This document shows, piece by piece, positions 1-43,585 of a DNA stretch of 52,385 nucleotides (positions within the stretch are counted from its first letter, which is position 1; each line of letters opens with the position of its first letter). Under the pieces are notes generated by a model. The model searched no databases, was not told where the DNA came from, and saw only the letters and a list, made by a program, of their open reading frames with translations. The stretch lies in assembly GCA_903934015.1 (NCBI GenBank), contig CAIZMI010000041.1, forward strand, positions 1-52,385, read 5' to 3'. The stretch is from an uncultured bacterium. GTDB taxonomy: Bacteria > Patescibacteriota > Andersenbacteria > UBA10190 > CAIZMI01. The position numbers and the translations under genes were made by a program.

Positions 1-48
1 CATCTGGATGGAAATAGACGTTATGGTATAAGAAGTCTCTGAGTTTCA

Positions 49-471
49 GTGTCATCTTTTCAAAAATTGGCTCGAATGAGACTACTTTGTCAGCGTGCTT
101 TTGTGCATGGGGATTTTACTAAAGCCAATGTGTTGAAGGGGAATGATAGCAAAATCTATATTTTGGATTTTTCCGTTTCAAATTGGTACCCAAGAATGCA
201 GGAACTTGCCGTGATTGCGGCCAATCTTTTACATGACGAAAAACATACTTCGTCCTTGCGTGAAAGATGTGATTTGGTTTATACGAATTATAACTTGTTG
301 AACCCACTCACAAAATTAGAGCATGACAATTTGTTTACTTACTCTGTTGCGGGATTAGCAATGGAACTTCTAGGTTCATACCAGGAGCGATTTATTAATG
401 GCAATGATAATGAAGAAACACGCTTTTGGTATAATCTTGGTCGTGAAGGCTTGCGAGAGGCACTTAATTAA
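49..471 (+). pseudogene. Phosphotransferase-family (APH/CotS-like kinase) C-terminal fragment. Only the catalytic-loop half is present.
   Basis: GTG-initiated 140-aa ORF carrying the Brenner catalytic motif HGDFTKANVL and the ILDF (DFG-like) motif but no N-terminal nucleotide-binding lobe. An in-frame TGA at 40-42 and stops in the other frames rule out an upstream extension. It is followed by the conserved 29-bp boundary motif. Confidence 0.4.
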
Positions 472-477: not shown

Positions 478-710
478 AACAATAGTGTAGTCAGGGGTGG
501 GTAACCAAACATTCTTCTTCATGAGCATTATTCTGGTTCGGTCCTTCGACACGGCAGGATGAGTACTTCGACTGCGCTCAGCACAAGTAGTCCACCGACC
601 CTCGCTACGCCCCGAAGCGAACTTTGTTCTGCTTCGGGGGAGCTAACAAAAAATACCGCTAATCATGGAGATATTTTTGTGGAGGAGAGTTGGATTCCGA
701 ACTGAGGCCA
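478..710 (+). repeat. Long (~230 bp) copy A of the repeat element: 29-bp boundary motif plus a structured tail with hairpins
   Basis: Aligns over ~200 bp at high identity with 4852-5094. Contains the hairpin CCCCGAAGCG..CGCTTCGGGG and a degenerate AAAAATACCGC-loop-GCGGTATTTTT terminator-like hairpin. Confidence 0.7.
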
Positions 711-777
711 TTTTTCGCTGTTCGTACTTCAGTGAGTCGGAATGAGGGAAAACTAGTGATAGGTGTACAATTTGACT

Positions 778-1296
778 ATGCCAAAAGTATTAATTGTTAC
801 TGGTCCGGGCGGTGCTGGCAAAACAACAATCGCTCAGATGGTCGCGGAGAGATGTGGTTCTATTTATCTGGATGCCGATAGTGAAGATACAGAGTTTTTT
901 CCTGATGGTGGCCAGTGGTTGCCAGAGAATTCAGAAAAACTAAAAAAAGCGCATGAAAAAATTCTCAATAAGACGAGCGAACTGATTGAAAAAGGACACA
1001 GTGTTGTTGTTGACTATATTATTTTTGGTCGGTACGCCGAGTTTTTTGATATGTTTCGTAGTCGATTTGGAAGTGGCCTGCTAATTAAGGTTCTTTTTCC
1101 AACAGAAGCGGTTACCGTTAAGCGGGATAAGGAACGAGATTGTTGGACAACCGGGGAGGAGAGAATAAAAGCTGTTTCTGGAGAACTTTGGGATGTAAAA
1201 GAAATTGTAGGTAAAGAAAATTTCATAGATACTTCAAATCAGTCCTCTGAGGAAACGTTTAACAAATATTTCTCTAATTGTTTCAAAGCACCCTGA
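778..1296 (+). CDS. P-loop NTPase, small-molecule / nucleotide kinase-like (AAA_33 / CPT-like)
   Basis: Walker A GPGGAGKTT near the N-terminus; size ~173 aa. ATG at 778 is preferred over the GTG at 763. Confidence 0.55.
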   Translation: MPKVLIVTGPGGAGKTTIAQMVAERCGSIYLDADSEDTEFFPDGGQWLPENSEKLKKAHEKILNKTSELIEKGHSVVVDYIIFGRYAEFFDMFRSRFGSGLLIKVLFPTEAVTVKRDKERDCWTTGEERIKAVSGELWDVKEIVGKENFIDTSNQSSEETFNKYFSNCFKAP

Positions 1297-1298
1297 TT

Positions 1299-2225
1299 AT
1301 GTCTAAAAAAGGCAATGCCATCATCGAGTTAGCAGAAAAAAAGATACATGGTTCGATTAAAGACATTACTCAGGTTATTAATAAAGGCCATATGAATGAA
1401 GTTTATCTAGTTAAAACAGATAGACAAAATGTCATATTAAGGGTTAACGAACCATCAAGTTTTGAAAGGTTTAAAAAAGAATGTTGGTGTGCTGAGGAGG
1501 CAGCATTAATGGGTGTTCATACTCCAAAAGCGTTGGAAGTGGGTATTGGTGGTGAACATTCTTTTATTCTATTTGACTACATTGAAGGAAAGAATGGTGC
1601 TGAAATAGTTCAATCTCAAGACTTGTGGTACCAACTGGGTATACAGTTGAAAAAAATACACAATATCAGTGTCAATGGTTTTGGAGAAGAACTAAGCGAT
1701 ATTAGAAGTGGAAATTTTGATGAATGGAAAAAATATATCGACTACAATATTAATTCGTTAAACAAAGGCGATCAACTTCGTAAAAGAGGGGTTCTGAATG
1801 ATGAAAATTCTGCGAAGATACAAAGTTTGCTTAGTTCGTTGCTTGATAAAAAATTCAATTTTGGGTTGTCGCATGGAGATTATTCATTGGCAAACGTAAT
1901 TGTTGATAATCGTTCAGTACCAAATATTATTGATTGGGGATGCGCGCAAGCCCACGTAGTACCAGATTACGACTTCGGAATAATTATCGATGAAAGTGTT
2001 GGAGAAAATACCGAATATTTTAAAGCGTTGTTGAACGGATATGGTATGACAGAATCTGATTATTTAGATATCAAGAATGAAATTATGGTTTTGCAGTTGT
2101 TGGTTGCATTAGATAAGCTTCGGTGGGCGATGGACAAGAATACCAAACGCATTGAATTTTACGTGGCGCAGGTAACCAAGTTTGTTAAAAAAAACAACAG
2201 TGTAGTCAGAGGCGGGGTAAACTGA
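1299..2225 (+). CDS. Aminoglycoside/antibiotic phosphotransferase (APH) family kinase
   Basis: HGDYSLANVIVDN catalytic loop and IIDWG (DFG-equivalent); ~309 aa. The stop is embedded in the 29-bp boundary motif (...NNSVVRGGVN*). Confidence 0.7.
   Translation: MSKKGNAIIELAEKKIHGSIKDITQVINKGHMNEVYLVKTDRQNVILRVNEPSSFERFKKECWCAEEAALMGVHTPKALEVGIGGEHSFILFDYIEGKNGAEIVQSQDLWYQLGIQLKKIHNISVNGFGEELSDIRSGNFDEWKKYIDYNINSLNKGDQLRKRGVLNDENSAKIQSLLSSLLDKKFNFGLSHGDYSLANVIVDNRSVPNIIDWGCAQAHVVPDYDFGIIIDESVGENTEYFKALLNGYGMTESDYLDIKNEIMVLQLLVALDKLRWAMDKNTKRIEFYVAQVTKFVKKNNSVVRGGVN
2193..2222 (+). repeat. 29-bp boundary motif copy 2 (AACAACAGTGTAGTCAGAGGCGGGGTAAA)
   Basis: Direct sequence match to the copies at 478, 4252, 4852 and 5510. 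It overlaps the 3' end of the APH gene. Confidence 0.75.
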
Positions 2226-2306
2226 TTTTCATTTTAATTAGTGCAATTTCATATGCATACACGCGGGGCGTAGACGTCAGAACGTTTCGTTGTTAAAATC
2301 CGCTTA

Positions 2307-3401
2307 ATGGCCACCGAATTTATAAAAGGAATTGAGTTAAGCAGACGGTTTTGTCAAGAAATAGTTAAACCAATCCTTGATTCTGAGTTTCTGGGATTAA
2401 AATATTCTTCGGCCCTTATTGGTTGGGGGTCAGAAGTGTTGGGTTATGATACTGAAATTTCCAGAGATCACCACTGGGGTCCTCGGTTATTGATTTTATT
2501 GAATGAAGAAGATTTTGTGGAATTAAAGGAAAAAATATCTCAAAAGTTATCTGAAAAACTTCCATATGAATTCATGGGCTATTCCACCAACTTTTCAAAT
2601 GCAAAAGAACACGGTGTAAGAAGTGCAGAAAAAATAATCAGTGGCCCAGTAAATCACATGATTGAATTTTTTACTATCAAATCCCTTTGGTTAATGCGTT
2701 TGGGTTTTGACCCATATCAAGAGATTTTAAACCATGATTGGTTATCATTTCCTCAACAGAGATTGCTTGCTTTAACAAGTGGCGAAGTATATTTCGATGG
2801 ATTAGGTGAATTGGAAGAAGTAAGAAATAAATTTCACTATTATCCCAATGAAGTTTGGCTCTATCTTTTGGCATCGCAGTGGACAAAAATCGCACAAGAG
2901 CAAGCATTTGTCGGGCGTACAGGTGATGTTGGGGACGAATTGGGATCCCGCGTAGGGGCTTCTCGGCTGGTGCGAGAAATAATGAAATTGTGTTTCTTGA
3001 TGGAGAAGAAATATTATCCTTATACCAAGTGGTTCGGCACCGCTTTTGAAAATTTGAATATTGCACCAGTTTTGTCACCAATATTATCTCGCGTGTTTTT
3101 AGCGACTTCGTGGAAGGAAAGAGAAAAGTATCTTTCTGAAGCATATAAAGTGATTGCGATAGCACATAACTTATTAAAAATAACTAAGCCATTATCTACG
3201 GAAGTTTCTCTCTATCACGAAAGACCATATTTGGTCATAAGTGCCGATGAATTTGTGAAAGCCATAATTACTGAAATCAAGGAAGAATCACTAAAAAAAC
3301 TTCCCGTGATTGGTTCCATTGATCAATTTGTTGATAGCACTGATGTTTTAGATGAACCATTGTTGTGCAGGAAATTGAAGACAGTGTACGAGAATCCATA
3401 G
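2307..3401 (+). CDS. DUF4037 / nucleotidyltransferase-like domain protein
   Basis: N-terminal GWGSEVLGYDTEISRDHHWGPRL resembles the NTase-fold G[SG]..D.D signature region of DUF4037 proteins. Called from memory. Confidence 0.4.
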   Translation: MATEFIKGIELSRRFCQEIVKPILDSEFLGLKYSSALIGWGSEVLGYDTEISRDHHWGPRLLILLNEEDFVELKEKISQKLSEKLPYEFMGYSTNFSNAKEHGVRSAEKIISGPVNHMIEFFTIKSLWLMRLGFDPYQEILNHDWLSFPQQRLLALTSGEVYFDGLGELEEVRNKFHYYPNEVWLYLLASQWTKIAQEQAFVGRTGDVGDELGSRVGASRLVREIMKLCFLMEKKYYPYTKWFGTAFENLNIAPVLSPILSRVFLATSWKEREKYLSEAYKVIAIAHNLLKITKPLSTEVSLYHERPYLVISADEFVKAIITEIKEESLKKLPVIGSIDQFVDSTDVLDEPLLCRKLKTVYENP

Positions 3402-3413
3402 TATTCAAATTTT

Positions 3414-3818
3414 ATGAACGAAACAACACCATACTCACAACTAATAAAACCATCATGGGCTCCGCCGGGCTGGGTTATTGGGCCGGCATGGACGGTGCTC
3501 TATGCAATTATTGTCGTTTCTTTCGGTACTATTTTTTATAAAGCATTCACCAAGCAAATTCCGTGGGTGGTGGCTCTCCCTTTTGCACTCAATCTTGTTT
3601 TTAACTTTGTCTTTGCGCCAATACAATTCCGCTTGGTAAATAATTTTCTCGCATCGATCGACATCTTGCTCGTCGTCGGCACGCTCATCTGGGCGCTCTG
3701 TGCTGTCTGGCACGCTTCACCTGAGCTCCGCTGGGTGGTCTACGCCAACATTCCATATCTTCTGTGGGGAACATTTGCAACTTGTGTGCAATTAACAATA
3801 ACTTATTTAAATAGGTGA
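3414..3818 (+). CDS. tspO: TspO/MBR (tryptophan-rich sensory protein) family membrane protein, short form
   Basis: PSWAPPGWVIGPAWTVLY matches the TspO N-terminal signature. The protein has multiple TM helices and is 134 aa, shorter than typical TspO. Confidence 0.55.
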   Translation: MNETTPYSQLIKPSWAPPGWVIGPAWTVLYAIIVVSFGTIFYKAFTKQIPWVVALPFALNLVFNFVFAPIQFRLVNNFLASIDILLVVGTLIWALCAVWHASPELRWVVYANIPYLLWGTFATCVQLTITYLNR

Positions 3819-3935
3819 TGATTAATTTTAGATTTTGTTGGTTTATTTGTCATCATTTACGGATTTGGCCGATGAGTACATTGGTGGATGGCTAAAATGG
3901 CCGGAGAGTGAAAATATCGATGCTATCATTCTGAC

Positions 3936-4259
3936 ATGGGCATTGTTGTTTTTTTGAGACAATTCAAAATTGGACCGTTTGCTGTTTTCGATTTTGTATT
4001 AGCATATATTGGAGTATTTTTTATTGCTCTACTTTTAACAAAGTTGTTTTTAAGACTTAATCTTAAAATTTCACGAGAATCGTGGCTCTGGTTGACCTTG
4101 CCAATATCGGTGTTGTTTCATGCAGTTTTTCAGCAAAACACGCCTTTAATGAAGATTCTATTGAACCCAAATGGTTTTTATGTGGAAAAGGCGGTATTAA
4201 TATTTATGCTTTTTATGGGATTGAGAAAGATTCGCTTAGTTAAGGTCGCGAAACAATAG
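3936..4259 (+). CDS. Small integral membrane protein, unknown function
   Basis: 107-aa hydrophobic ORF with an ATG start. Its stop TAG lies inside boundary motif copy 3. Confidence 0.45.
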   Translation: MGIVVFLRQFKIGPFAVFDFVLAYIGVFFIALLLTKLFLRLNLKISRESWLWLTLPISVLFHAVFQQNTPLMKILLNPNGFYVEKAVLIFMLFMGLRKIRLVKVAKQ

Positions 4260-4280
4260 TATCGTCAGGGGTGGGGTAAA
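4252..4280 (+). repeat. 29-bp boundary motif copy 3 (AACAATAGTATCGTCAGGGGTGGGGTAAA)
   Basis: Direct sequence match to the other copies. Confidence 0.75.
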
Positions 4281-4307
4281 GTGATTATTTCTGTATAATG
4301 TGAACAT

Positions 4308-4859
4308 ATGGCAGATGAATTAATCGATATTGTTGATGAGAACAATAACCTCATTGGTGTCCAGAAGATGAAAAGTGAGGCGCATCGGGATGGTTTGTGG
4401 CATAGAACGGCGCATCTTTGGTTATATAACTCAAAAGGTGAAATTCTGCTTCAGTTGCGAGCGAAGAATAAAAAGTTGTATCCAGCATTATGGGATGTTT
4501 CCGCGGCTGGTCATATTGGTGCTGGTGAAGAGCCTATTGTCTCCGCGCTAAGAGAAGCGGATGAAGAAATTGGTATTCAACTCAGAAAGGATCAACTAGA
4601 TTTCTTTAAAACAAGAAAGGTCATGGCAGTTTATCGAGAAATAAAAAACAATGAATTTTGCTATGTATATTTGGCAAAATATGATGGCGGCGCTAAGAAT
4701 CTAAGGTTGCAGAAGGAAGAAGTGGAAGAAATTAAATTTGTTTCACTTGTTGAATTGGAAGCTAATTTGCGCGAAAAATCGGAACATTATGTTCGACATG
4801 GGAAATATTGGGATGATGTTATTGCGGAAATCAAAAGAAGGGTATTGATTAAACAATAG
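4308..4859 (+). CDS. NUDIX hydrolase
   Basis: NUDIX box GHIGAGEEPIVSALREADEEIGI (GX5EX7REUXEEXGU). Confidence 0.8.
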   Translation: MADELIDIVDENNNLIGVQKMKSEAHRDGLWHRTAHLWLYNSKGEILLQLRAKNKKLYPALWDVSAAGHIGAGEEPIVSALREADEEIGIQLRKDQLDFFKTRKVMAVYREIKNNEFCYVYLAKYDGGAKNLRLQKEEVEEIKFVSLVELEANLREKSEHYVRHGKYWDDVIAEIKRRVLIKQ

Positions 4860-5094
4860 TGTAGTCAGGGGTGGGGTAAACATACATGCTTCTTCATAAG
4901 CACAATTCTGGTTCGGTCCTTCGACACAGCTCAGGATAAATACTTCGACGCGGCTCAACATAAATAGTCCACCGACCCTCGCTACGTCCCGAAGCGAGCT
5001 TTGTTCTGCTTCGGGGGGGGGGGGGGGCTAACAAAAAATACCGCTAATCATGGCGGTATTTTTGTGGAGGGGAGTCGGATGCCAAATTGGTAGA
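4852..5094 (+). repeat. Long copy B of the repeat element. Carries a G15 homopolymer (5013-5027) and a clean terminator-like hairpin (5034-5063).
   Basis: Starts with the 29-bp motif, then ~200 bp collinear with 478-710. Hairpin AAAAATACCGC-TAATCATG-GCGGTATTTTT. Confidence 0.7.
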
Positions 5095-5125
5095 CTAGTT
5101 TCCGTTGAGAGCATATTATAAAAAA

Positions 5126-5521
5126 ATGATTACAAAAGAAAAAGTAAAGGAAATAATAGAAATATATAGTGAAGCATGGAAAAACCAGGGTGTCGAACAG
5201 ATATTGACGATCTTTACAAAGGACGCAAAATATCAAGAAGGTTTTTTATCTGAACCAATGGTTGGACACGAGGAGATTAGAAAATATTGGAACAAAAAGG
5301 TTGTCCTTGAGCAGAAAAGTATTCAATTCAAACTAGTTAGAATAATGATTGATGGTAATGATTGTTTGGTGGAATGGCACGCTGAGTTTGATGATCTAGT
5401 TTCGGGAGAGCATGTAAAAATGGTTGAAGTCGCATTTCTTGAATTTTTGGGCGATATGGTTTCATCTTTGCGAGAAAATTGGGATACGATCAGAATACCA
5501 ATCGCTCAAAAAATAGTGTAA
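5126..5521 (+). CDS. NTF2-like / SnoaL-like (ketosteroid-isomerase fold) small protein
   Basis: ~130 aa of typical SnoaL-like size and composition (the ORF-track TTG start is at 5105). The stop TAA lies inside boundary motif copy 5. Confidence 0.4.
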   Translation: MITKEKVKEIIEIYSEAWKNQGVEQILTIFTKDAKYQEGFLSEPMVGHEEIRKYWNKKVVLEQKSIQFKLVRIMIDGNDCLVEWHAEFDDLVSGEHVKMVEVAFLEFLGDMVSSLRENWDTIRIPIAQKIV

Positions 5522-5538
5522 TCAGGGGTGGGGTAAAA
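5510..5538 (+). repeat. 29-bp boundary motif copy 5 (AAAATAGTGTAATCAGGGGTGGGGTAAAA)
   Basis: Direct sequence match to the other copies. Confidence 0.7.
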
Positions 5539-5600
5539 CAGGCACCAATAAACGTAAAATAATTGGTTGCGTAGATATTGAAAGTTGATATAGTAAACTA

Positions 5601-6128
5601 ATGAAAATTTATGTTATTCGTCATGGAGAAACAACCGGAGATGTGGAAGATCGCTTCGGTGGTAGTTATGACGATCATTTAACCGAAAAGGGAAAAAGCC
5701 AATTGCAACAGACAGCCACGAGTTTGATTGGTAAAAATATTGAAATTATTTTATCGAGCCCATTGATTCGCGCACGGGAGTCTGTGGAAATTATCAATGG
5801 ACAAATAGCTGTTCCAGTTGAAATTATCGATGGGTTGCGCGAAAGACATTATGGTGTACTGACCGGATTGACGAAGGTCGTGGCGAAAGAAAGATTTCCG
5901 GAGGTTGTCGAGAGCCACAAAGATCCGTTGTACACGGATCCGGAAGGTGAAAGTTATGAAGATTTCAATGCAAGGGTGATAAGTACTTTTAAGGATATTT
6001 CAGCACGAAAATATAAAACAGTCGCTATTGTTTCACATGGTGGACCGATAAAAACGATTTACCGTTTTATTGGTAAGGAACTAAATCGACAATTGGGAGA
6101 TGGAGAAATTTTAGAATTGGAAATTTGA
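5601..6128 (+). CDS. Histidine phosphatase superfamily (phosphoglycerate-mutase-like) protein
   Basis: N-terminal IRHGET (RHG catalytic motif) and a C-terminal SHGG motif. Confidence 0.7.
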   Translation: MKIYVIRHGETTGDVEDRFGGSYDDHLTEKGKSQLQQTATSLIGKNIEIILSSPLIRARESVEIINGQIAVPVEIIDGLRERHYGVLTGLTKVVAKERFPEVVESHKDPLYTDPEGESYEDFNARVISTFKDISARKYKTVAIVSHGGPIKTIYRFIGKELNRQLGDGEILELEI

Positions 6129-6732: not shown

Positions 6733-7410
6733 GTGGGTATAGACGACACAAAAGCGGAGATTATTGCTAAACGCGGATACAGAAAAAGTATCAAGGGTGA
6801 TCAGTATTCTCTTTATCTTTCTAATTATCCGGTTGCGGCGGATTATTTGTCTGAGAGGTTAGAAAACAAGGGTAAAATATTGGTGGAATTGTGTTGTGGT
6901 GTGGGTGTCACCATGCGGGCCGTGGCTAGCAAATTTGAAAAGCTTATCGGAATAGAAATAGACTCAGAAGTACTAGATTTTTGCCGCCAAAATCTCAAGG
7001 CTGCTGGTATAGCGAGTAAGATTGATTTTATTCAAGGGGATATTTCAGATCAAAACATTTTGAAAAAGATCAAGGCAGATGTAGCCATTTATGATATTCC
7101 TTATTGGGTGTCAAAAGAGTTGCCAGATGGAACGAATGTTTTAGACAGGAATCCGGAATTAGGGGTAATGATTGAAAAAATAAGAAAAAATATTACTCCC
7201 AATATTGTAATCTTTGCTCCTCCTTACCTTAAATACAATCTTGTGAGAGAGCAATTTGGAAAGTGTGAATTTCAAAAGATTTTCATCAATGGACGATACG
7301 ACAGGAATTACATATTTCTTGGGAACCTGGTTGAACACAAAGGTGTTACAGAAAAAAGATTGAAATATAGTATAGTTGGTGGTGGAATAACCAAAAATTC
7401 TCCTAATTAG
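6733..7410 (+). CDS. Class I SAM-dependent methyltransferase (TGS/RNA-cap-guanine-N2-like)
   Basis: VELCCGVGVTM glycine-rich SAM motif and an IFAPPY motif near the C-terminus; GTG start. Confidence 0.5.
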   Translation: MGIDDTKAEIIAKRGYRKSIKGDQYSLYLSNYPVAADYLSERLENKGKILVELCCGVGVTMRAVASKFEKLIGIEIDSEVLDFCRQNLKAAGIASKIDFIQGDISDQNILKKIKADVAIYDIPYWVSKELPDGTNVLDRNPELGVMIEKIRKNITPNIVIFAPPYLKYNLVREQFGKCEFQKIFINGRYDRNYIFLGNLVEHKGVTEKRLKYSIVGGGITKNSPN

Positions 7411-7489
7411 GGCGGTTATTTTTGTAAAATTTAAGTTAGGGTAAATATGAAAAAGTGGTTAGGTCCTAATTTTTATTCTTTGTTGTATA

Positions 7490-10252
7490 ATGAAGTGGAA
7501 TAAAATGAGCTTGTTTAAAATCAAAATTAAAATATTCTTTGTTCTCGTTATCTTGGGGCTTCTTTGTTTTCGATTTATACCAAGCGTTCATGCTGATGGC
7601 GAAAACTGGCTTACCGGTTATGGTTATCGAAAAGCCATTACAATAACAGGATCATCGAGTGGAGCCTTAACTAATTATCAACTTAAGTTTTTATTGAACA
7701 AAGGCGCCGGTAGCGATAGCGGTAATACGATTTATCTGGGAACAAATGTCCTTGATAGTTTCAATGACATCCGTTTTGCTACTAGCGACGGCAACACGGC
7801 GCTTGATTATTGGGTACAGTCTGTTTCCGGAATCGTTGCGACAGTGTGGGTGGAAGTGGATAGTGTTCCAGCCAATCCCAGCACAAAAACGATATATCTT
7901 TATTACGGAAAGGCTGGTGCTTCAAGCGCGAGCAATGGCGATAATACTTTCGCGTTTTATGATGATTTCAATGATGACAGTATTGATACAAACAAGTGGA
8001 CTGTTTCCACGGATAATGCCGTACTTGCCTCTTATTCCGAATCTGGCGGTTACGCCCGTTTAACTGGTACAGCATCCGGGTCGTGGCACTCGGCTTCTTG
8101 GGAAGCCAAAAACACATTTGGTCCGGGATACGCGCTTACAGCTTCTCAATATTATTCAGATTTCGTTTTTCCTTCAAACATTACTGCTCAAATGGGGTTT
8201 ACCAGCGCCGACTGGAATGATCGTTTGGCGATGAATATTCAGTCTCTTAATTGGGCTTCACCGTCTAATTCATATAAAATTGAATCCGCTAAGAGTGGTA
8301 CCGCAAGTTACTCAAACATCAGCAGTCCACACAATGCTTGGCGCACTTACGATTTTATTTGGACTCCAACTGTAAATAAAATCATAATAAATGGAGTAAC
8401 CGAGGCTACCATAAGTGATACAAGCTATATCTCCACCGATACGGCACTTAATCCAAAAATAATTCTTCAACCAGGAGCGGGAAACGGATATGTTTATACG
8501 GATTGGTTTATGGTGCGAAAGTATGTGAACAATGAACCCACTGTATCTGCGGGTGCGGAAGCAACGCCTGACTCAACACCTCCCACTATCCAAACATATT
8601 CTCCCGCCAATAATGCGACCAGTGTTTCATCTACGGCGAATTTGGTATTGGCATTCAATGAAAATATTACGGCGGTAACCGGAAAAAATATCACCATTAA
8701 AAAAGTATCAGACAACTCCGAGATCGAGACAGTTGCCGCTGATGACACCGGAAAAGTGACGATTGTAAACAATACGGCAAGCATTAATCCGGCTACCGTT
8801 TTGGATGATGTCACGCAGTATTATGTTTCAGTGGAAGCCGGCGCTTTTAAGGATTTATTCAATAATTCGTTTGCCGGTATCACCGACAGTACAACCTGGA
8901 GATTTACCACAAGCGATTCTGCTGCCCCGACCGTAGTTGCTCTCAGTCCGGTCAGTGGGTCTTTCGGGGTGCAGTTAAGTGGAAATTTGGCCATTGAATT
9001 CAACGAGAATGTGAATGTCGGCAGTGGCAGTGTGAGTATCTTTAATAAGTTCACAGACGTATTGGTGGAAGCGGTAGACGTGACGAGTGGGCAAGTGACA
9101 GGCGGTGGAACTTCGATAATTTCAATAAACCCGACTACAAATTTGGTGTATGCAACGGATTATTATATAAAAATTGATCCTACTGCTTTTACCGATTCTT
9201 CGAGTAACTCCTATTCGGGTATTTCCGATAAAACTTCGTGGGTATTGCAAACAGTGTTAGCTCCTGCATCATCAGTTGAATCAAGTGTCTCATCGGGTTC
9301 ACAAAAAAAACTACCGGATCCGGTGCACACGATAGATGTAAATGAGAAGGAGGTAAAAAGTGTAGACAGGAAAATTTTATCAAAGATTGAAGTTGAGCAA
9401 GATGCGCCGTTTGTGTTGCATGTCAAAGCGCCCGATCCAGATCAGGTAAAAAACGTTGTTGTAACAATAAATAAAAAAACGTACAAACTTGCCTTGGCAA
9501 AGGACAAAAAAGGTAACCCGGAATTTTTCATCAAATTGGCATTGTCAAAACCCGGAAATTATCCATATTCCATTATTTCTGATTATGGTTCAACGGTTCG
9601 TCGTGCAAAAGGTGAGGTTATTATTAAAAAGAAAGCAGTAGCTGTAATATTGCCTTCCCCAAAACCAATTTATTCAAAGCAAAATATTGTGAAAGAAAAG
9701 CCTTTTCTCATAAAGCAAAAACCAACTGCTAATAATGTTGTTGAGAAAAGCAAGATTGAGAAAAAGACGGAAGTTGCGCCAACTGTTCCGACGATGATAA
9801 CCACTGTACCCGAATCTTCGCTTGAGATACCAACTGAAAAGATACCCAATGAAACATGGATCGATCTCACCTTCAATCTGTTTAAAACAACCGGGTCAAA
9901 AACAAGTTCGATGATTTCCAATACGTCTCGCTCGTTTGTTGGATTATTTGTAGGGACGGGAGAAAAAATAGCGAAATTATTTGAAAAAAATCCCGCGCAT
10001 GTTTATCGAAAAGTGACTGTGAAGTTGACTTCGGAGGAGGGGACGCCTCTTATTGGTGCGACGGTTACTATTTCGTCGGAACCGCAGACGGCTGTTAGTG
10101 ATAGTGACGGAAAGGTTCAGTTTGAAAACATTGAAGCGGGAAAACATCAATTGAAAGTTGATTATCAGGGATATTCAACCAAACAAGCATTATCAATAAC
10201 CGAACCTGTTACAGAAGTAACAATTAATATCACGGCGGTTTTTAAAAAATAA
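7490..10252 (+). CDS. Giant secreted surface protein (920 aa). Signal peptide, DUF2341/LamG-like N-domain, three tandem Ig-like (SbsA/Big-type) domains, and a conserved C-terminal region with a carboxypeptidase-regulatory-like beta domain.
   Basis: Signal peptide; GYGYRKAITITG...NYQLKF...FNDIRFATSDGNTALDYWVQ matches the DUF2341 signature. ~100-aa repeats span nt ~8578-9245. The C-terminal ~330 aa is ~70% identical to the paralog at 19946-22408. Confidence 0.7.
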   Translation: MKWNKMSLFKIKIKIFFVLVILGLLCFRFIPSVHADGENWLTGYGYRKAITITGSSSGALTNYQLKFLLNKGAGSDSGNTIYLGTNVLDSFNDIRFATSDGNTALDYWVQSVSGIVATVWVEVDSVPANPSTKTIYLYYGKAGASSASNGDNTFAFYDDFNDDSIDTNKWTVSTDNAVLASYSESGGYARLTGTASGSWHSASWEAKNTFGPGYALTASQYYSDFVFPSNITAQMGFTSADWNDRLAMNIQSLNWASPSNSYKIESAKSGTASYSNISSPHNAWRTYDFIWTPTVNKIIINGVTEATISDTSYISTDTALNPKIILQPGAGNGYVYTDWFMVRKYVNNEPTVSAGAEATPDSTPPTIQTYSPANNATSVSSTANLVLAFNENITAVTGKNITIKKVSDNSEIETVAADDTGKVTIVNNTASINPATVLDDVTQYYVSVEAGAFKDLFNNSFAGITDSTTWRFTTSDSAAPTVVALSPVSGSFGVQLSGNLAIEFNENVNVGSGSVSIFNKFTDVLVEAVDVTSGQVTGGGTSIISINPTTNLVYATDYYIKIDPTAFTDSSSNSYSGISDKTSWVLQTVLAPASSVESSVSSGSQKKLPDPVHTIDVNEKEVKSVDRKILSKIEVEQDAPFVLHVKAPDPDQVKNVVVTINKKTYKLALAKDKKGNPEFFIKLALSKPGNYPYSIISDYGSTVRRAKGEVIIKKKAVAVILPSPKPIYSKQNIVKEKPFLIKQKPTANNVVEKSKIEKKTEVAPTVPTMITTVPESSLEIPTEKIPNETWIDLTFNLFKTTGSKTSSMISNTSRSFVGLFVGTGEKIAKLFEKNPAHVYRKVTVKLTSEEGTPLIGATVTISSEPQTAVSDSDGKVQFENIEAGKHQLKVDYQGYSTKQALSITEPVTEVTINITAVFKK

Positions 10253-10325
10253 ACGTTGTGGATATTGTTAATTAAACAATGGTGTAGGCAAAAGTTTGGT
10301 AATATAATTTTCTAAAATTATTTCA

Positions 10326-12260: not shown

Positions 12261-13361
12261 ATGATTACGGCTACTGGAAAACTTGAAGTTTTTGGGTATG
12301 ATGCATTTTTCGAGTCAGGTAGAGTTGAATTGGGGTTGCTTGATTGTGAGGTGGCGCGGGTTACCGTGATGAGTCGTGGGCAATACAAAGTTATTGGTAA
12401 GAATGGCGAGTTTTTGGCAAAAATTACTGGTAAGATGATGTTTACCGCTAACGCCACGGAGGATTATCCGGCAGTTGGAGATTGGGTGGCGATTAAAGAA
12501 CTGGAAAACAAACAAGCAGTAATAAAAGCAGTGCTCCCACGTAAGACTATAATAAAAAGAAAGTACGGAGATAAGAACCAGGCCGGCGACAAAAATGAAA
12601 CGCAAATTATCGGAGCTAACATTGATGAAGCATTTGTTGTTGAATCGACCGATCGCGATTTTAATCTTAATCGTTTTGAAAGATATTTTGTCATTTTGAG
12701 TGAAGCGGGCGTTAAGCCGGTGATCGTGTTAAACAAGATTGATTTAATTTCGAAAGAAGAGCTTGAGATAAAATTGGTTGAACTTAAAGAAAGATTTAAA
12801 AACGTTATGGTTATTGCCACTAGCACTATTGATGATAGCGGGCTTGATACCTTGATGACGTATTTATTGCCTGGCAAGACTTATTGTTTTCTGGGCTCTT
12901 CCGGTGTTGGAAAATCCACTTTGATAAATAAACTGATTGGGAAATATGTTGCTTCGACGGCAGAAATTAGTGAACAATCCAAAAGGGGGAAGCACATAAC
13001 GACAATGCGCAATATGTATTTTTTAAAAAACGGCGCAATAGTGATCGATAATCCCGGCATGAGAGAGATTGGAATCATTGCCGGTGACGCTGATAGCGTA
13101 TTTGGAGAAATTGCGGTTTTGGCCGGGCAATGCAAGTTTAAAGATTGTACTCATACTCAGGAACCGGGATGCAGAGTTCTTGAGGAGTTAAGTGATGGAA
13201 AATTAAATGAAGAAAAATATTCAAATTACCTGAACCTAAAAAAAGAAACTGATAATTCGCAGATGTCGAATTGGGAAAAAAGAAAAGCGGACCGTGACTT
13301 TGGAAAGTTCATCAATAAAGCCAAGAAAGATTTGAAGAAATTTAAGGGTGGCGGAGTGTAG
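12261..13361 (+). CDS. rsgA: Ribosome small-subunit-dependent GTPase A
   Basis: Circularly permuted GTPase motifs: LNKIDL (G4), GSSGVGKSTLINKL (G1), and the C-terminal zinc knuckle CKFKDCTHTQEPGC. Confidence 0.85.
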   Translation: MITATGKLEVFGYDAFFESGRVELGLLDCEVARVTVMSRGQYKVIGKNGEFLAKITGKMMFTANATEDYPAVGDWVAIKELENKQAVIKAVLPRKTIIKRKYGDKNQAGDKNETQIIGANIDEAFVVESTDRDFNLNRFERYFVILSEAGVKPVIVLNKIDLISKEELEIKLVELKERFKNVMVIATSTIDDSGLDTLMTYLLPGKTYCFLGSSGVGKSTLINKLIGKYVASTAEISEQSKRGKHITTMRNMYFLKNGAIVIDNPGMREIGIIAGDADSVFGEIAVLAGQCKFKDCTHTQEPGCRVLEELSDGKLNEEKYSNYLNLKKETDNSQMSNWEKRKADRDFGKFINKAKKDLKKFKGGGV

Positions 13362-14061: not shown

Positions 14062-14093
14062 AAAAAAATACCGCTCAAGGCGGTATTTTTTTT
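14062..14093. terminator. Bidirectional rho-independent terminator between convergent genes
   Basis: AAAAAATACCGC-TCAAG-GCGGTATTTTTTT; 7-bp GC-containing stem flanked by A and T runs. Confidence 0.7.
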
Positions 14094-19945: not shown

Positions 19946-22408
19946 ATGTGTTTGCGAGATAAAAAGGTCTTAGTGATAAGGGAATTATTTACCCTATTTT
20001 TTGTCGTGAGTGTGTTTTTGGGATTGTCTGCAAAACAGGTATCAGCCGCGGACTGGACCGGAGAGTATTGGAATCTGTCCGCGTTTTCCGGTGCATCTCC
20101 CGCATTTCCAAGTGGGGTGCCAACATTAACCCGCACCGATTCAACGATAAATTTTGATTGGGGGATGGGGTCGCCTGATTCGTCTATTAATGTTGATGAT
20201 TTTGCGACACGTTGGACAAAGACATTGGATATGGCGGGTGGTTCATATACATTTACAACCAATTCTGATGATGGAGTACGCTTTTATATGGATGGTAATT
20301 TATTACTTTCGTCTTGGATCGATCAGGCGCCGGCCGTAAATAGTGTAACGACTACTGTTACGGCGGGCAGTCACACATTAAAAGTTGAATATTATGAAAA
20401 CGGCGGTGGGGCCGTTATACAATTTTCCTATGATTCTCCGCCGGGAGTTTCTTCTTTTTCGCCGGCCACCGGGGCAACCGGTGTAGTCCCAACTTCCAAC
20501 TTGGTTGTAACATTTAGTGAAAATATTACGGCGGTATCGGGAAAGAATATTGCAATTAAGAAAACCGAAGACGATACGACAGTGGAAACAATTTCTGCCA
20601 ACGATACCGGGAAAGTGTCAGTGAGTGGCGCTATTGCAACAATTAATCCGGCCACCGTATTATCTGATTTGACGGGGTATTATGTACTGATTGACAGCGG
20701 AGCATTCAAAGACAGTGCCAATAAAATTTTTGCCGGAATTTCCGCAAAAACAGATTGGGCTTTTACGACGGCCGATACATCCGCTCCGCTTGTTTCCATC
20801 CTTACTCCTGCCAATTCCGCAACTTCGGTAGCTCCATCGGCAAATTTGGTTTTGGCATTTAATGAAAATATTACAGCGGTTGCCGGTAAAAACATTACGA
20901 TCAAAAAGAAGTCCGATGTGTCGGATGTGGAAGTAATTTCCGCCAATGACACCGGAAAAGTGACGGTAAGCGGAAATACGGCAAGTATCAATCCCGCAAC
21001 AGTCTTGGATGATCTGACACAATATTATGTCTTGACGGACAGCGGTGCTTTTAAAGACACGGCAAACAATTCCTTTGCCGGTATAGCTGATTCAACTGTT
21101 TGGGGGTTTACCACGGCAGATTCTACCGCGCCGACTGCGGTGGCGTTGGTGCCGGTTAGTGGGAGTTTAGGTGTGACCCTTGGCGCGAATCTTTCGATTG
21201 AGTTTAATGAGCCGATAGTTGTCGGTGCAGGCAATGTGCGGATATTTGCGAAAAATTCTGACGTTGAAATTGCAACAATTGATGTTACCGGTGCCGGAGT
21301 GACAAATAATGGTTCGGGAATAATCGCTATCAATCCGTCTGCTGATTTGCAGTATCAAACAGATTATTACGTAAAAATTGATGGAACAGCTTTTGTTGAT
21401 ACTGCGAGTAATGCTTACGCAGGAATTTCCGATAAAACAACTTGGGTGTTTACAACCGTTGTGGCGCCGGCTGTGGTATTGGATGGCAACAACGGGTCTG
21501 GTGATAAACAAGAAAACGAACGACCTGATCCGGTACAATCTCTAGCTTCTTTTGAAAATAAAGCAGTTAGTTCAACGGGGGAGGTGCCAAAAATCGAAGT
21601 TGTTACCGGCGAGAAATTTGTATTAAAAATCAAAGCCCCGGATTCTGATCAAGTAAAATCTGTTGTGGTAAAAATTGACAATAAAGCATATCGTCTTGTT
21701 CTTGATAAGAACGATCCTAAAAATCCTTTTTTTGCAATTAAATTACTGCTTGATAAACCTGGAAAATATTCGTATAGCGCAGTGACGGATTATGGTTCAA
21801 CGGTGCGCAGGAGTAAGGGCGTGGTTTTGGTGGGAGAAAAAAAGAAAGAAATTGTTGCAACTCCAAAACCGCGGGTGGTGGTAAAAAAAGAAAAAACTAA
21901 AATTGCTGTTGATAAGCCAACGGCTGTTTCGCTAAATAAAACCGAATCAGTTACGGGCAAAAATTTAGTTGCCATCCCACAATCGGCACCCAAGACGGTT
22001 AAAGAAGTCGTGTCAAAAATTTCTTGGTTTAATCGCACGGTATCTAAAATTTCTTCTGCCTCGCGAGTAGTAACTGGTTTTGTTAGTGGTAGTGGAAATA
22101 AAATAGTCAGTCTTTTCGAGAAGAAGCCGGCTCACATTTATCGAACAGTCACTGTAAAGCTGGCGACGGCTGAAGGTGTCCCGCTGGTGGGCGCAACGGT
22201 CACGTTGTTTTCTGATCCAAAAACATCAGTTTCTAATCAGGATGGAAAAGCAGAGTTTCATGATATAGAAGCGGGGAAACATAAATTGCAGATCGATTAT
22301 CAGGGTTACAAGAGCAAACAATCACTTGAGATCACGGAACCCGTTACGGAGGTAACGATTAATGTAACTGCAAACTTAAATAAGGGTTGGCGTTTTCTAG
22401 GATTTTAG
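19946..22408 (+). CDS. Giant secreted surface protein (820 aa). PA14 N-domain, four tandem Ig-like domains, and the same conserved C-terminal module as 7490-10252.
   Basis: PA14-like region (GEYW...SDDGVRFYMDGNLL...LKVEYYENGGGAVIQFSY). Repeats span nt ~20435-21470. The C-terminal regions (KAPDSDQVK...; FEKKPAHIYRTVTVKL...EITEPVTEVTIN) are ~70-75% identical to the first giant gene. Confidence 0.7.
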   Translation: MCLRDKKVLVIRELFTLFFVVSVFLGLSAKQVSAADWTGEYWNLSAFSGASPAFPSGVPTLTRTDSTINFDWGMGSPDSSINVDDFATRWTKTLDMAGGSYTFTTNSDDGVRFYMDGNLLLSSWIDQAPAVNSVTTTVTAGSHTLKVEYYENGGGAVIQFSYDSPPGVSSFSPATGATGVVPTSNLVVTFSENITAVSGKNIAIKKTEDDTTVETISANDTGKVSVSGAIATINPATVLSDLTGYYVLIDSGAFKDSANKIFAGISAKTDWAFTTADTSAPLVSILTPANSATSVAPSANLVLAFNENITAVAGKNITIKKKSDVSDVEVISANDTGKVTVSGNTASINPATVLDDLTQYYVLTDSGAFKDTANNSFAGIADSTVWGFTTADSTAPTAVALVPVSGSLGVTLGANLSIEFNEPIVVGAGNVRIFAKNSDVEIATIDVTGAGVTNNGSGIIAINPSADLQYQTDYYVKIDGTAFVDTASNAYAGISDKTTWVFTTVVAPAVVLDGNNGSGDKQENERPDPVQSLASFENKAVSSTGEVPKIEVVTGEKFVLKIKAPDSDQVKSVVVKIDNKAYRLVLDKNDPKNPFFAIKLLLDKPGKYSYSAVTDYGSTVRRSKGVVLVGEKKKEIVATPKPRVVVKKEKTKIAVDKPTAVSLNKTESVTGKNLVAIPQSAPKTVKEVVSKISWFNRTVSKISSASRVVTGFVSGSGNKIVSLFEKKPAHIYRTVTVKLATAEGVPLVGATVTLFSDPKTSVSNQDGKAEFHDIEAGKHKLQIDYQGYKSKQSLEITEPVTEVTINVTANLNKGWRFLGF

Positions 22409-26262: not shown

Positions 26263-26411
26263 ATCAGTAATATAAAAAGTGAGGTGAAATACAGCTCACT
26301 TTTTTATTTGAGTTCGTAATAATCATGTGAGTATTGGTGTGATTAGAAAGAAGGTAGCTACTGACCCGTATGAAAGAATGTAGTTTTTATTAAGTACTTG
26401 AAAAACCATAA

Positions 26412-26490
26412 CCCTCGAGGCATCGGGGGTCCAAAACGTGGATTCCCGTTGTCACTATTCGACCCCGAGCTCATGGTCGAGGGGCGGGAA
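26412..26490 (+). repeat. GC-rich nested inverted repeat / candidate structured RNA
   Basis: CCCTCGA..CGGGGGTC...GACCCCG..TCGAGGG, plus ATTCCCG...CGGGAAT arms of the same kind as the hairpin-repeat family. Confidence 0.35.
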
Positions 26491-33613: not shown

Positions 33614-33781
33614 AATAATCGCGCTACAGGCACAAGGGTGACGCATCTAAAAGCTTGTCTCTCGTGTCTTTGTCTGGACGCGAGATTTTGCTGTGAACTT
33701 TCACAATTACATAAGGAGAAATAACGCAGAAAAAATGGACGTGTGTTTGGGTGTTTCTTGTTTCAAAAGAAGGAATGGAAA

Positions 33782-43469: not shown

Positions 43470-43585
43470 TTTAAAAGTTGATCAGATTACACACAGAATT
43501 CAACATGAGCCTCCATTCCCGCAACAAGCGGGAATCCACGTTTTATATTGTATGGGCCCCCGATGTCTCGGGGGTGGTGGTTTTT
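43470..43585 (+). repeat. Intergenic repeat element, copy 2. Contains ATTCCCGC-AACAA-GCGGGAAT and CCCCCGA-TGTC-TCGGGGG hairpins followed by TTTTT.
   Basis: Aligned with 38405-38540. The second hairpin plus T-run is terminator-like. Confidence 0.6.

What the first reader, a model, noticed from the sequence alone, without database searches (positions are those of the whole stretch)
478..5094. Pair of ~230-bp structured repeat elements with a terminator-like hairpin and a G15 homopolymer in one copy
Elements 478-710 and 4852-5094 share ~200 bp at high identity beyond the 29-mer. Two hairpins are present: CCCCGAAGCG-loop-CGCTTCGGGG, and AAAAATACCGC-TAATCATG-GCGGTATTTTT. The stem ATACCGC/GCGGTAT of the second is also the stem of the independent terminator at 14062-14093. 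Copy B contains 15 consecutive G (5013-5027) where copy A has 5. Such a tract is slippage-prone and may be a phase-variable or contingency locus, or an assembly artefact. The element could be a MITE-like mobile repeat, a small RNA gene, or the full form of the boundary site whose 29-mer copies are remnants.
Basis: seen in the sequence. Interest (0 to 1): 0.5.

Follow-up and report, generated by a model that had tools for sequence, protein, structure and literature searches.

The report
Terminator-bearing repeats bounding gene cassettes
The two ~240-bp repeats are real: they are the long versions of a non-coding, hairpin- and terminator-carrying repeat that follows every transcription unit in a 20-kb block of accessory genes in an uncultured Patescibacteria (CPR) genome. 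Their 15-G tract is genuine and varies in length, but nothing shows that it acts as a switch.

Summary
Observation confirmed. Copy A (478-~728) and copy B (4852-~5110) are 84-88% identical, non-coding, and match no Rfam family, tRNA or tmRNA. The G-run is 14, 14, 15, 15 and 16 in five independent assemblies, and it is the only indel across 12-15 kb.

A and B are not an isolated pair. They are long variants of a modular family with at least 13 co-oriented copies. All 14 consecutive transcription units of an accessory-gene array end in a member. The array lies between znuABC and tfoX-rsgA, genes that are near-adjacent in a relative. The other 42 kb of the window holds none.

A full member has five parts:
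- a 29-mer 0-70 nt after, or overlapping, the stop codon
- a pyrimidine-rich spacer
- bulged hairpin H1
- an A-tract/hairpin/T-tract terminator
- small hairpin H2, followed by the next gene's promoter

A and B add an insert in the H1 loop and a GC hairpin. H1 survives in a diverged copy behind rsgA of a relative, through two compensatory and three G·U changes.

Best reading: a 3'UTR/terminator boundary module, with the 29-mer as the conserved cassette junction. How it spreads is unknown, and no recombinase or transposase was found in 62 kb. It is not an attC site and not a demonstrated MITE. The G-tract lies outside any ORF or promoter spacer.

The parts
478..506 (+). Copy A: 5' 29-mer (one G shorter than the consensus). 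It starts 6 nt after the stop codon of the truncated APH gene.
507..534 (+). Copy A: pyrimidine-rich spacer ending in CATTATTCT
535..600 (+). Copy A: hairpin H1. Arms are GGTTCGGT (535-542) and ACCGACC (594-600), with a bulged T. A ~50-nt insert occupies the loop (543-593); short forms have a 5-nt loop here.
610..640 (+). Copy A: GC-rich hairpin CCCCGAAGCGAAC-TTT-GTTCTGCTTCGGGG, ending in G5 (636-640). Short forms lack this module.
648..679 (+). Copy A: terminator-like module (A-tract, ATACCGC, loop TAATCATG). The 3' arm is mutated to GAGATAT, so the stem is broken in this copy.
688..728 (+). Copy A: small hairpin H2 (AGTTG-GATTC-CGAACT, 688-703) and the weakly conserved tail. The next gene follows: extended -10 TGTACAAT, then ATG at 778.
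4852..4880 (+). Copy B: 5' 29-mer AACAATAGTGTAGTCAGGGGTGGGGTAAA. Its TAG is the stop codon of the Nudix gene (4308-4859).
4910..4977 (+). Copy B: hairpin H1. Arms are at 4910-4917 and 4971-4977, with a ~53-nt loop insert.
4988..5015 (+). Copy B: GC-rich hairpin CCCGAAGCGAGC-TTTG-TTCTGCTTCGGG
5013..5027 (+). Copy B: G15 homopolymer, extending the 3' arm of the GC hairpin. It is 14-16 G in other assemblies.
5033..5063 (+). Copy B: intact A-tract/hairpin/T-tract, an intrinsic-terminator-like module that is symmetric and so potentially bidirectional.
5073..5110 (+). Copy B: H2 (AGTCG-GATGC-CAAATT, degenerate) and the tail. It overlaps the promoter-like site TAGACT-17-TATTAT (5091-5119) of the SnoaL gene (ATG at 5126).
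2193..2239 (+). 5' remnant of the family: the 29-mer plus 18 nt. It is read through by the APH ORF, whose C-terminus is ...NNSVVRGGVN.
4252..4280 (+). 29-mer-only site. Its TAG is the stop codon of the 107-aa ORF. It is followed directly by the extended -10 TGTATAAT of the Nudix gene.
5509..5537 (+). 29-mer-only site overlapping the 3' end of the SnoaL gene
7363..7426 (+). Degenerate, internally deleted copy: a diverged 29-mer, the pyrimidine-rich spacer and the 3' half of the terminator (GGGCGGTTATTTTTGT)
10275..10303 (+). Most degenerate 29-mer (8 mismatches), at the right edge of the array
14062..14093 (+). Solo terminator with the same A-tract/ATACCGC stem/T-tract as copy B but a different loop. 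Possibly a 3'-only relative of the family.

Best explanation
Copies A and B are the two long variants of a lineage-specific, modular, non-coding repeat family. The family forms the 3' boundary of every transcription unit in a ~20-kb array of co-oriented accessory genes in a Patescibacteria genome.

A full member has five parts:
- a 29-mer 0-70 nt after, or overlapping, the stop codon
- a pyrimidine-rich spacer
- a conserved bulged hairpin (H1)
- an A-tract/GC-stem/T-tract intrinsic terminator
- a small hairpin (H2)

The next unit's promoter and a leaderless-looking start codon follow.

Proposed working (inferred): the element is transcribed as the 3'UTR of the upstream gene, and H1 plus the terminator end and protect that transcript, which insulates neighbouring cassettes. 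The conserved 29-mer is the repeated junction at which units were added, lost or exchanged by recombination between copies. That would explain why truncated copies always keep the 29-mer beside the stop codon.

A and B differ from the ~155-nt short forms by a ~50-nt insert in the H1 loop, which looks like a nested partial copy, and by an extra GC hairpin.

The G15 tract is a slippage expansion of the G5 at the foot of that hairpin. It is real and hypervariable, and probably neutral.

Shown: anatomy, copy number, position rules, conservation of H1, and G-run variability between assemblies.
Inferred: transcription, termination, and the recombination role.
For: Family and modules:
- nhmmer and covariance-model searches find the same set of copies. 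Four short forms lie in L008, one in L004, A and B are in the window, and there are five partial or degenerate copies.
- The 3' module of copy f is 91% identical to that of B. The 5' module of g is 85% identical to that of f. The family is therefore a mosaic.

Position rule:
- All 14 consecutive units end in a family member, which starts from 48 nt before to 83 nt after the stop codon.
- No copy occurs in window 10.4-52 kb.

Array as a variable region:
- In relative L015, znuABC lies next to a 130-aa gene and rsgA. Here about 20 kb of unrelated small genes sit between them.
- G+C is 0.375-0.388 over most of the array (0.417 across the 8-10 kb bin), against 0.39-0.49 elsewhere in the window.

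Structure:
- H1 is paired in 100% of cells across 8 distinct sequences.
- The diverged L015 copy (42 bits, E~1e-8) keeps H1 through 2 double changes and 3 G·U changes, and the bulged U is retained.
- Every non-Watson-Crick H1 pair is G·U on the gene strand. That favours folding of the + strand, as RNA or as top-strand DNA.
- The terminator hairpin is the dominant feature of every predicted fold.

Non-coding:
- Stop codons occur in all six frames. The antisense ORFs read the 29-mer in different frames in A and B. Substitutions between A and B show no 3-nt periodicity.

Conservation elsewhere:
- The 29-mer recurs at stop codons of unrelated ORFs in another organism (L014, two sites).
- A diverged version follows a DUF4037 homologue in L024.

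G-run.
Against: - There are no expression data, so transcription and termination are inferred from sequence alone.
- Whole-element folds are only modestly better than shuffles (z from -1 to -3.3).
- Covariation in H1 rests on a single diverged sequence, in an alignment that was fitted to the model.
- A plain 3'UTR or terminator role does not explain two things: why the other ~25 transcription units in the window lack the element, and why three sites keep only the 29-mer with no hairpin.
- Copy A's terminator stem is broken.
- The spreading mechanism is unknown. Homologous recombination between 29-nt repeats would be inefficient, which leaves room for dedicated machinery encoded elsewhere in the genome.
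- The only variant junction seen (L004) could be an assembly chimera, because 36 nt are shared exactly at the join.
Confidence: 0.45

Rival explanations
1. Integron-like gene capture. The 29-mer, with H1 and H2 as folded accessory structure, is the recombination site of mobile cassettes. A site-specific recombinase encoded elsewhere in the genome inserts and excises them, and the array is its cassette store.
For: - The array is co-oriented and made of unrelated small accessory genes (APH, Nudix, SnoaL, kinase, hydrolases). Every unit is followed by the site.
- The array is inserted between core genes that are near-adjacent in a relative.
- Truncated copies always keep the 29-mer at the upstream gene's stop codon: five 5'-only remnants against one doubtful 3'-only remnant.
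- Near-identical 29-mers follow unrelated ORFs in another organism, and a diverged one follows a cassette-gene homologue in L024.
- H1 is conserved in structure with an extrahelical base and tolerates a loop insert, as attC sites do.
Against: - No integrase, resolvase or transposase was found in the 52-kb window or the 9 kb upstream of it.
- The element fails the attC sequence rules: there are no RYYYAAC...GTTRRRY ends, and the 29-mer lies outside the inverted repeat.
- Cassettes carry their own promoters.
- All independent assemblies of this population have the same cassette order, so no gain or loss was observed.
- A diverged copy follows a core gene (rsgA) in a relative, outside any array.
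Confidence: 0.2
2. MITE-, REPIN- or Correia-like miniature mobile DNA. The ~100-nt segment bounded by ATTCTGGTTCG...CGAACCAGGAAT, with the terminator at its tip, is a non-autonomous element moved by a transposase acting in trans. It prefers a target next to the 29-mer.
For: - The H1 region and the H2 region are imperfect inverted copies of each other. The element matches its own reverse strand at E=6.6e-5, and the bottom-strand fold shows the long-range stem.
- GTAG occurs beside both hairpin feet.
- A and B look like a nested insertion into the H1 loop.
- The flanking genes of A and B are unrelated, and similarity starts and stops at discrete ends.
- Short-read contigs break at the repeat, and one further copy lies next to aspS (L004).
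Against: - No target-site duplication was found.
- No empty-site versus filled-site pair was found.
- All copies are co-oriented and confined to one array within the 62 kb examined.
- No transposase or RAYT gene is present in those 62 kb.
- The most conserved part, the 29-mer, lies outside the inverted repeat.
- No copies were found in the phage, plasmid, viral or GTDB-representative collections.
Confidence: 0.15
3. A stand-alone small-RNA gene, or a 3'UTR-derived regulatory sRNA of about 200 nt. Its function would lie in the RNA itself, with the 29-mer as a seed or a protein-binding site.
For: - H1 is conserved, with G·U pairs only on the + strand.
- A terminator sits at the 3' end.
- The 29-mer is conserved across organisms.
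- Copy B's fold has z = -3.3.
Against: - No Rfam match.
- No promoter-like site precedes the 29-mer, which abuts or overlaps the upstream stop codon.
- Copies differ by large insertions and deletions, and several are truncated.
- Pairing of the 29-mer with downstream segments is no better than in shuffles.
Confidence: 0.07
4. The G-tract is a contingency (phase-variation) switch that controls the neighbouring SnoaL or Nudix gene.
For: - The tract is 14-16 G across five assemblies, and it is the only indel over 12-15 kb.
- It is the only long homopolymer in the 52-kb window.
Against: - It lies 154 nt after the Nudix stop codon, upstream of the terminator hairpin, and about 65 nt upstream of the -35-like hexamer of the SnoaL promoter-like site. 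It is therefore in neither an ORF nor a -35/-10 spacer.
- Length differences between short-read assemblies may partly reflect homopolymer sequencing or assembly error. One contig simply ends in the tract (L006).
Confidence: 0.05

Closest known systems
Mosaic intergenic repeats of proteobacteria (BIMEs/REP, ERIC; Neisseria Correia elements and NIME/dRS3 arrays; pneumococcal BOX elements). Comparison from general knowledge.
   Same: - Non-coding elements of 100-250 nt, built from shuffled modules, in intergenic positions close to gene 3' ends.
- Imperfect palindromes that can act as terminators or as processing and stabilising hairpins in mRNA.
- Size variants arise by gain or loss of modules, as in A and B versus the short forms and the mosaic copies f and g.
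   Different: - These copies are strictly co-oriented.
- They start within about 80 nt of the stop codon and often overlap it.
- They are confined to one cassette array rather than dispersed.
- They show no sequence similarity to any of those families.
- The host is a small-genome CPR bacterium.
Integron attC sites and Vibrio cholerae repeats (VCRs) in chromosomal cassette arrays. Comparison from general knowledge.
   Same: - One conserved repeat follows each unit of a co-oriented array of unrelated accessory genes.
- The repeat starts at or near the stop codon.
- It has a partly palindromic structure with a bulged base and a variable central part.
   Different: - There are no RYYYAAC/GTTRRRY boxes.
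- The conserved 29-mer is not part of the palindrome.
- No intI, attI or Pc was found.
- Cassettes have their own promoters and terminators.
- At 155-250 nt the element is longer than attC sites.
REPINs mobilised by RAYT transposases, and MITEs. Comparison from general knowledge.
   Same: - Two inverted hairpin-forming units flank a spacer.
- GTAG lies next to the hairpins.
- A and B look like a nested copy.
   Different: - No RAYT or transposase gene was found.
- No target-site duplication was found.
- Copy number is low.
- All copies share one orientation and one locus.
Repeated att-site remnants in tandem genomic-island arrays, for example partial tRNA copies bounding islands or tycheposon cargo. 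Comparison from general knowledge.
   Same: - Short direct repeats bound successive blocks of cargo genes.
- Full and partial copies of one site alternate.
- A diverged full copy overlaps the 3' end of a core gene (rsgA) in a relative.
   Different: - No tRNA or tmRNA is involved.
- There are several full copies rather than one.
- No integrase was found.
- Units are only 0.5-3 kb long.

Membership tests
Integron attC site | Imperfect palindrome whose ends are R'' (RYYYAAC) and R' (GTTRRRY) | tested here: not met
   The outer inverted repeat reads 5'-CTGGTTCG...CGAACCAG-3', so the GTT box comes first. The 5' end of the element is the non-palindromic 29-mer.
Integron attC site | Adjacent intI integrase, attI and Pc promoter; if absent, the array would be a CALIN | tested here: not met
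   No recombinase domain was found in any ORF of the window or in the 9 kb upstream of it. The array is flanked by znuABC and by a secreted-protein gene plus tfoX.
Integron attC site | One site after each cassette in a co-oriented array | tested here: met
   All 14 units end in a family member, and all are on the + strand.
MITE | Terminal inverted repeats at the two ends of the element | tested here: inconclusive
   The H1 and H2 regions form an imperfect inverted repeat (nhmmer reverse-strand self-hit, E=6.6e-5). However, the 29-mer and the pyrimidine-rich spacer (~55 nt) lie outside it.
MITE | Target-site duplication flanking the element | tested here: not met
   No shared direct repeat is present at the flanks of copies a-e, A or B.
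MITE / REPIN | Many dispersed copies in both orientations, plus a cognate transposase or RAYT gene in the genome | not testable with these tools
   Only about 62 kb of this genome could be read. Within it all copies share one orientation and one array, and there is no transposase. One extra copy lies next to aspS in L004.
Rho-independent (intrinsic) terminator | G+C-containing stem-loop directly followed by a T-tract, at the 3' end of a transcription unit | tested here: met
   Copy B has the stem-loop at 5033-5063. Short forms have ATAATCGC..GCGGTTATTTTT. Copy A's 3' arm is mutated. Termination activity itself could not be tested.
Any described RNA family (Rfam 15), tRNA or tmRNA | Covariance-model score at or above the gathering threshold, or an ARAGORN call | tested here: not met
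   There were no gathering-level hits in the window. The only hits near the elements were RNAI at E=4-8, on the terminator hairpin. The short forms gave nothing, and ARAGORN found no genes.
Phase-variable contingency locus (simple-sequence repeat) | Long homopolymer whose length varies within or between populations | tested here: inconclusive
   The tract is 14-16 G in five assemblies and is the only indel in 12-15 kb. These are assembly consensus sequences, not reads.
Phase-variable contingency locus (simple-sequence repeat) | Tract lies inside an ORF, or between or next to promoter elements, so that its length changes expression | tested here: not met
   The tract is intergenic. It lies 154 nt after the Nudix stop codon, 5' of the terminator hairpin, and about 65 nt upstream of the -35-like hexamer at 5091.

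The most novel reading that the evidence does not exclude
The 29-mer-bounded units are mobile gene cassettes of a previously undescribed, integrase-distant capture system in Patescibacteria. The full element (29-mer, bulged hairpin H1 and H2) would be its folded recombination site, recognised on the gene strand. The array would then be an integron analogue built with different site rules and a recombinase encoded elsewhere in the genome.
Probability: 0.18. Interest if true: 0.8.

Novelty: new variant of a known kind. Interest (0 to 1): 0.45.

Why it matters
CPR/Patescibacteria genomes are small and streamlined, and little is known about how they gain accessory genes or organise transcription. 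This locus shows a ~20-kb block of unrelated, apparently leaderless, individually promoted genes. Every unit ends in the same structured repeat.

That gives three testable handles:
- how cassettes are insulated from each other (the terminator modules)
- where the array recombines (the 29-mer, which is conserved in at least one other organism)
- one hypermutable G-tract that can serve as a population marker

If a dedicated recombinase exists, this would be a new gene-capture system. If not, it is a clean example of an intergenic repeat family spreading in a minimal genome.

Tried and rejected
- **Known RNA families, tRNA, tmRNA.** Rfam gathering and E-value scans of the window and of the short forms, plus ARAGORN, found nothing.
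- **Protein coding.** Stop codons occur in all frames. The antisense ORFs differ in frame between A and B. Substitutions show no codon periodicity.
- **attC site, Xer/dif site, CRISPR repeat, DNA-uptake sequence, DGR template/variable repeat.**
  - The 29-mer has no dyad symmetry.
  - Spacing is 0.6-3 kb of genes.
  - Copies occur in one orientation and in one locus only.
  - A/B differences are not adenine-specific.
  - These four points come from direct reading.
- **Base-pairing of the 29-mer with a downstream segment.** RNAalifold proposed it, and L024 seemed to show compensatory changes. RNAduplex energies are no better than shuffles, so the idea was dropped.
- **Wider distribution.**
  - The GTDB-representative scan with the H1 pattern gave one chance hit, inside an actinobacterial coding sequence.
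  - The metagenome scan with the 29-mer gave only L014.
  - Three viral scans gave either nothing or chance coding matches.
  - Phage and plasmid BLAST gave nothing.
- **Relatives.**
  - The relatives at 68-69% RsgA identity (L015-L019) have no 29-mer array.
  - Only L015 has a diverged single copy behind rsgA.
  - Six DUF4037 homologues were looked up. Only L024 has a diverged element.
  - Two homologues of an L014 cassette protein gave no clear copies.
- **Recombinase or transposase.** None was found in the window.
- **L004 junction (Nudix - element - aspS) as evidence of cassette exchange.** It cannot be separated from a de Bruijn-graph chimera, because 36 nt are shared exactly at the join.

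Full report
**1.

Copy A (478 to ~728) and copy B (4852 to ~5110) align over their whole length. Mean column identity is 84%, and ungapped blocks are 85-88% identical. The shared 29-mer is far beyond chance: 4 matches with up to 3 mismatches, against 0.00 in shuffles.

- The GC hairpin is CCCCGAAGC/GCTTCGGGG plus GAAC/GTTC in A. It is one pair shorter in B.
- The AAAAATACCGC/GCGGTATTTTT hairpin is perfect only in B (5034-5063). A has two substitutions in its 3' arm.

The G-run:
- G15 lies at 5013-5027, against G5 at 636-640 in copy A.
- It is the only long homopolymer in 52 kb. The next G-run is 7, there is no C-run of 7 or more, and A and T runs reach only 8.

The terminator at 14062-14093 shares 12 + 11 nt with B's hairpin but has a different loop. 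A profile of the A/B/f 3' module hits it at E=0.003.

**2. The G-run is real and variable**

The same population was assembled independently many times, and the assemblies are 99.6-100% identical to the window. Five assemblies that cross or reach the tract carry 14, 14, 15, 15 and 16 G between identical flanks. Over 12-15 kb of aligned sequence, the tract is the only indel, and there are only 1-2 substitutions elsewhere. One contig ends inside the tract, and others break at the 29-mer. That is what repeats and homopolymers do to short-read assemblies. Read-level heterogeneity could not be checked.

**3. Not a pair but a family**

Looking up window proteins in other assemblies gave 9 kb upstream of the window (L008, where window 778 corresponds to L008 10001). 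That stretch holds:
- four ~155-nt short forms (a-d, at L008 2540, 3504, 4166 and 4849)
- two mosaic relatives (g and f)

A seventh full copy (e) precedes aspS in a Logan contig (L004).

A profile HMM and a covariance model built from the short forms recover all of these, plus A, B and five partial copies in the window: 2193, 4252, 5509, 7363 and 10275. They find nothing in window 10.4-52 kb.

Anatomy of a short form:
- the 29-mer
- ~25-30 nt of pyrimidine-rich spacer ending in CATnATTCT
- hairpin H1: GGT(T)CGGT - AGTCC - ACCGACC, with a bulged T
- CTCGGAGCATC
- the terminator: AAATAATCGCT - loop - AGCGGTTATTTTT
- GTATA..
- hairpin H2: AGTCG - 5-6 nt - CGA(A)CT

A and B are this plan with two additions. 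One is a ~50-nt insert in the H1 loop, which itself begins with an H2-like hairpin followed by CAGGAT and so looks like a nested partial copy. The other is an extra GC hairpin, the one that carries the G-run.

Copy f has a different 5' module, shared with g at 85% identity. Its 3' module is of the A/B type, 91% identical to B. The family is therefore a mosaic.

The H1 and H2 regions are imperfect inverted copies of each other (reverse-strand self-hit at E=6.6e-5; bottom-strand fold).

**4. Context**

Best hits to RsgA place the organism in Patescibacteria, in the Parcubacteria or Paceibacteria group.

Window 1-10.3 kb and the 7 kb upstream form an array of about 22 small, co-oriented, functionally unrelated genes. 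They include APH, AAA_33 kinase, DUF4037, TspO, two Nudix genes, SnoaL, a histidine phosphatase, a hydrolase and a methyltransferase. G+C is 0.375-0.388 over most of the array and 0.417 in its 8-10 kb bin. It is 0.39-0.49 in the rest of the window.

The array lies between znuABC and tfoX-rsgA. In a relative with 69% RsgA identity, znuABC is separated from rsgA by a single 130-aa gene (L015).

Grouping the genes into transcription units gives 14 consecutive units. Every one ends in a family member, which starts between 48 nt before and 83 nt after the last stop codon. In several cases the TAG of the 29-mer is the stop codon itself.

Most genes that follow an element have a -10-like hexamer, often TGn-extended, 6-9 nt upstream of the ATG and no Shine-Dalgarno sequence. 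They are therefore probably leaderless (sequence reading only).

No recombinase, transposase or HUH protein is encoded in the window or in L008.

**5. Evidence on structure and strand**

Whole-element folds are only modestly better than shuffles. Copy B has z = -3.3 and the others range from +0.5 to -2.7. The terminator hairpin is the one stable feature.

The covariance model found a diverged full-length copy in relative L015 (11069-11186; 42 bits; E~1e-8). It lies directly at the 3' end of rsgA.
- In this copy H1 is kept through two double changes (U-A to C-G, and G-C to A-U) and three G·U changes. The bulged U is retained.
- Across 8 distinct sequences, 100% of H1 cells pair, and no shuffle reaches the observed covariation.
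- Caveats: the alignment is model-fitted. The helix-2 counts are inflated because the model aligned A's and B's GC hairpin to the terminator.
- All non-Watson-Crick pairs are G·U on the gene strand, which favours + strand RNA or top-strand DNA.

The proposed pairing between the 29-mer and CCGACCCTCGG is not better than chance.

The elements are non-coding.

**6. Distribution**

The family is rare.
- The metagenome scan for the 29-mer found one other organism (L014). It has two sites at stop codons of unrelated ORFs and a weak third.
- A DUF4037 homologue in L024 is followed by AATAGTG-N12-GGGTAAAC at its stop codon. An H2-like AGTCG-GGAGTA-CGACT lies 165 nt further on. This is probable, but the model does not detect it.
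- The GTDB-representative, viral, phage and plasmid collections gave nothing real.

**7. Interpretation**

The data best fit a cassette-boundary module. It would be transcribed as the 3'UTR of the upstream unit, ending and protecting that transcript with H1 and the terminator. Its 5' 29-mer would be the conserved junction along which the array was assembled or reshuffled.

The strongest unexplained regularities are:
- All 14 array units carry the element, and none of the units outside the array does.
- Truncated copies always keep the 29-mer: five 5'-only remnants against one doubtful 3'-only remnant.

Both keep an integron-like, recombinase-dependent mechanism alive (about 0.2). The inverted H1/H2 organisation and the nested look of A and B keep a MITE or REPIN origin alive (about 0.15).

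Membership in attC is rejected on the sequence rules and the absence of intI. MITE membership fails on target-site duplication and dispersal within the sequence available.

The G15 tract is best seen as a slippage expansion at the foot of a GC hairpin. Its position lies after the Nudix stop codon, 5' of the terminator, and about 65 nt upstream of the -35-like hexamer of the next promoter-like site. That argues against a classical phase-variation switch.

**8. An odd lead**

In L015 the part of the copy that corresponds to the 29-mer is the last ten codons of rsgA (KKFKGKEN*). In this genome rsgA ends in AAGGGTGGCGGAGTGTAG. That sequence contains both halves of the 29-mer (GGGTGGCGG and AGTGTAG) in swapped order. 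Whether the family derives from the rsgA 3' end is open.

**9. Verdict**

This is a real, lineage-specific, modular intergenic repeat family in a CPR genome. It is a new variant of the known kind, terminator-bearing mosaic intergenic repeats, with an unusual strict association with cassette boundaries. Interest is moderate (0.45). It would be high only if a dedicated capture mechanism is shown.

Noticed in passing
window 33743-35467 (+): A 574-aa ORF matches the eukaryotic major vault protein domains: MVP_shoulder at 1.9e-19, Vault_3 at 3.8e-14, and the Vault repeat at 3.4e-5. This is unusual for a Patescibacteria genome.
   Followed up: no
window 26351-26433 (-), 38504-38537 (+), 43546-43635 (+): A second intergenic repeat family: GGGAATCCACGTTTT...GGnCCCCCGAnnnCTCGGGGGTGGTGGTTTTT.AAGTACTTAATAAAAACT. 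It is a GC hairpin plus a T-tract, present in both orientations. Terminator-bearing repeats are therefore not unique to the array.
   Followed up: partly
window 1-98: The first 98 nt of the window do not match the other assemblies of the same locus, which align only from position 99 onward (L001, L005, L008, L009). This is probably a chimeric or variant contig end inside the APH gene.
   Followed up: partly
window 13335-13361 and L015 11069-11101: The 3' coding end of rsgA (KKFKGGGV* here, KKFKGKEN* in L015) resembles the 29-mer. In L015 it is the 5' part of a full diverged element copy. Here both halves of the 29-mer occur in swapped order.
   Followed up: partly
window 730-778, 2271-2307, 4281-4308, 5091-5126, 5560-5601: Genes that follow an element have a -10-like hexamer, several of them TGn-extended, ending 6-9 nt before the ATG. 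They have no Shine-Dalgarno sequence, which suggests leaderless mRNAs.
   Followed up: partly
window 7490-10252 and 19946-22408: Two large paralogous surface-type proteins (Big_5, CarboxypepD_reg, PA14/DUF2341) share 150-160-nt DNA repeats at 65-71% identity: 8601-8761 with 20460-20620 and 20805-20965, and 9116-9267 with 21320-21471.
   Followed up: no
L017 1006-1045, 1305-1344 (also 1298-1317 and 1382-1401): In a related genome, a 74-aa GIY-YIG ORF is flanked by 40-nt direct repeats at 95% identity, TCCCGGGTAGCTCCCCGCCAGCTGGCGGGGGCAGAGCAAC. This may be a small mobile endonuclease cassette.
   Followed up: no
L030 100-180 and 4850-4935: Inverted repeats of about 80 bp, rich in G and C runs, flank a 4.7-kb block of eight small ORFs in another Patescibacteria contig. 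The block could be a composite mobile or invertible segment.
   Followed up: no
L020 8365-9970: In a Parcubacteria MAG, a reverse transcriptase (RVT_1) and a trypsin-like protease lie directly upstream of the closest DUF4037 homologue. A serine recombinase lies nearby in sister contig L021.
   Followed up: no
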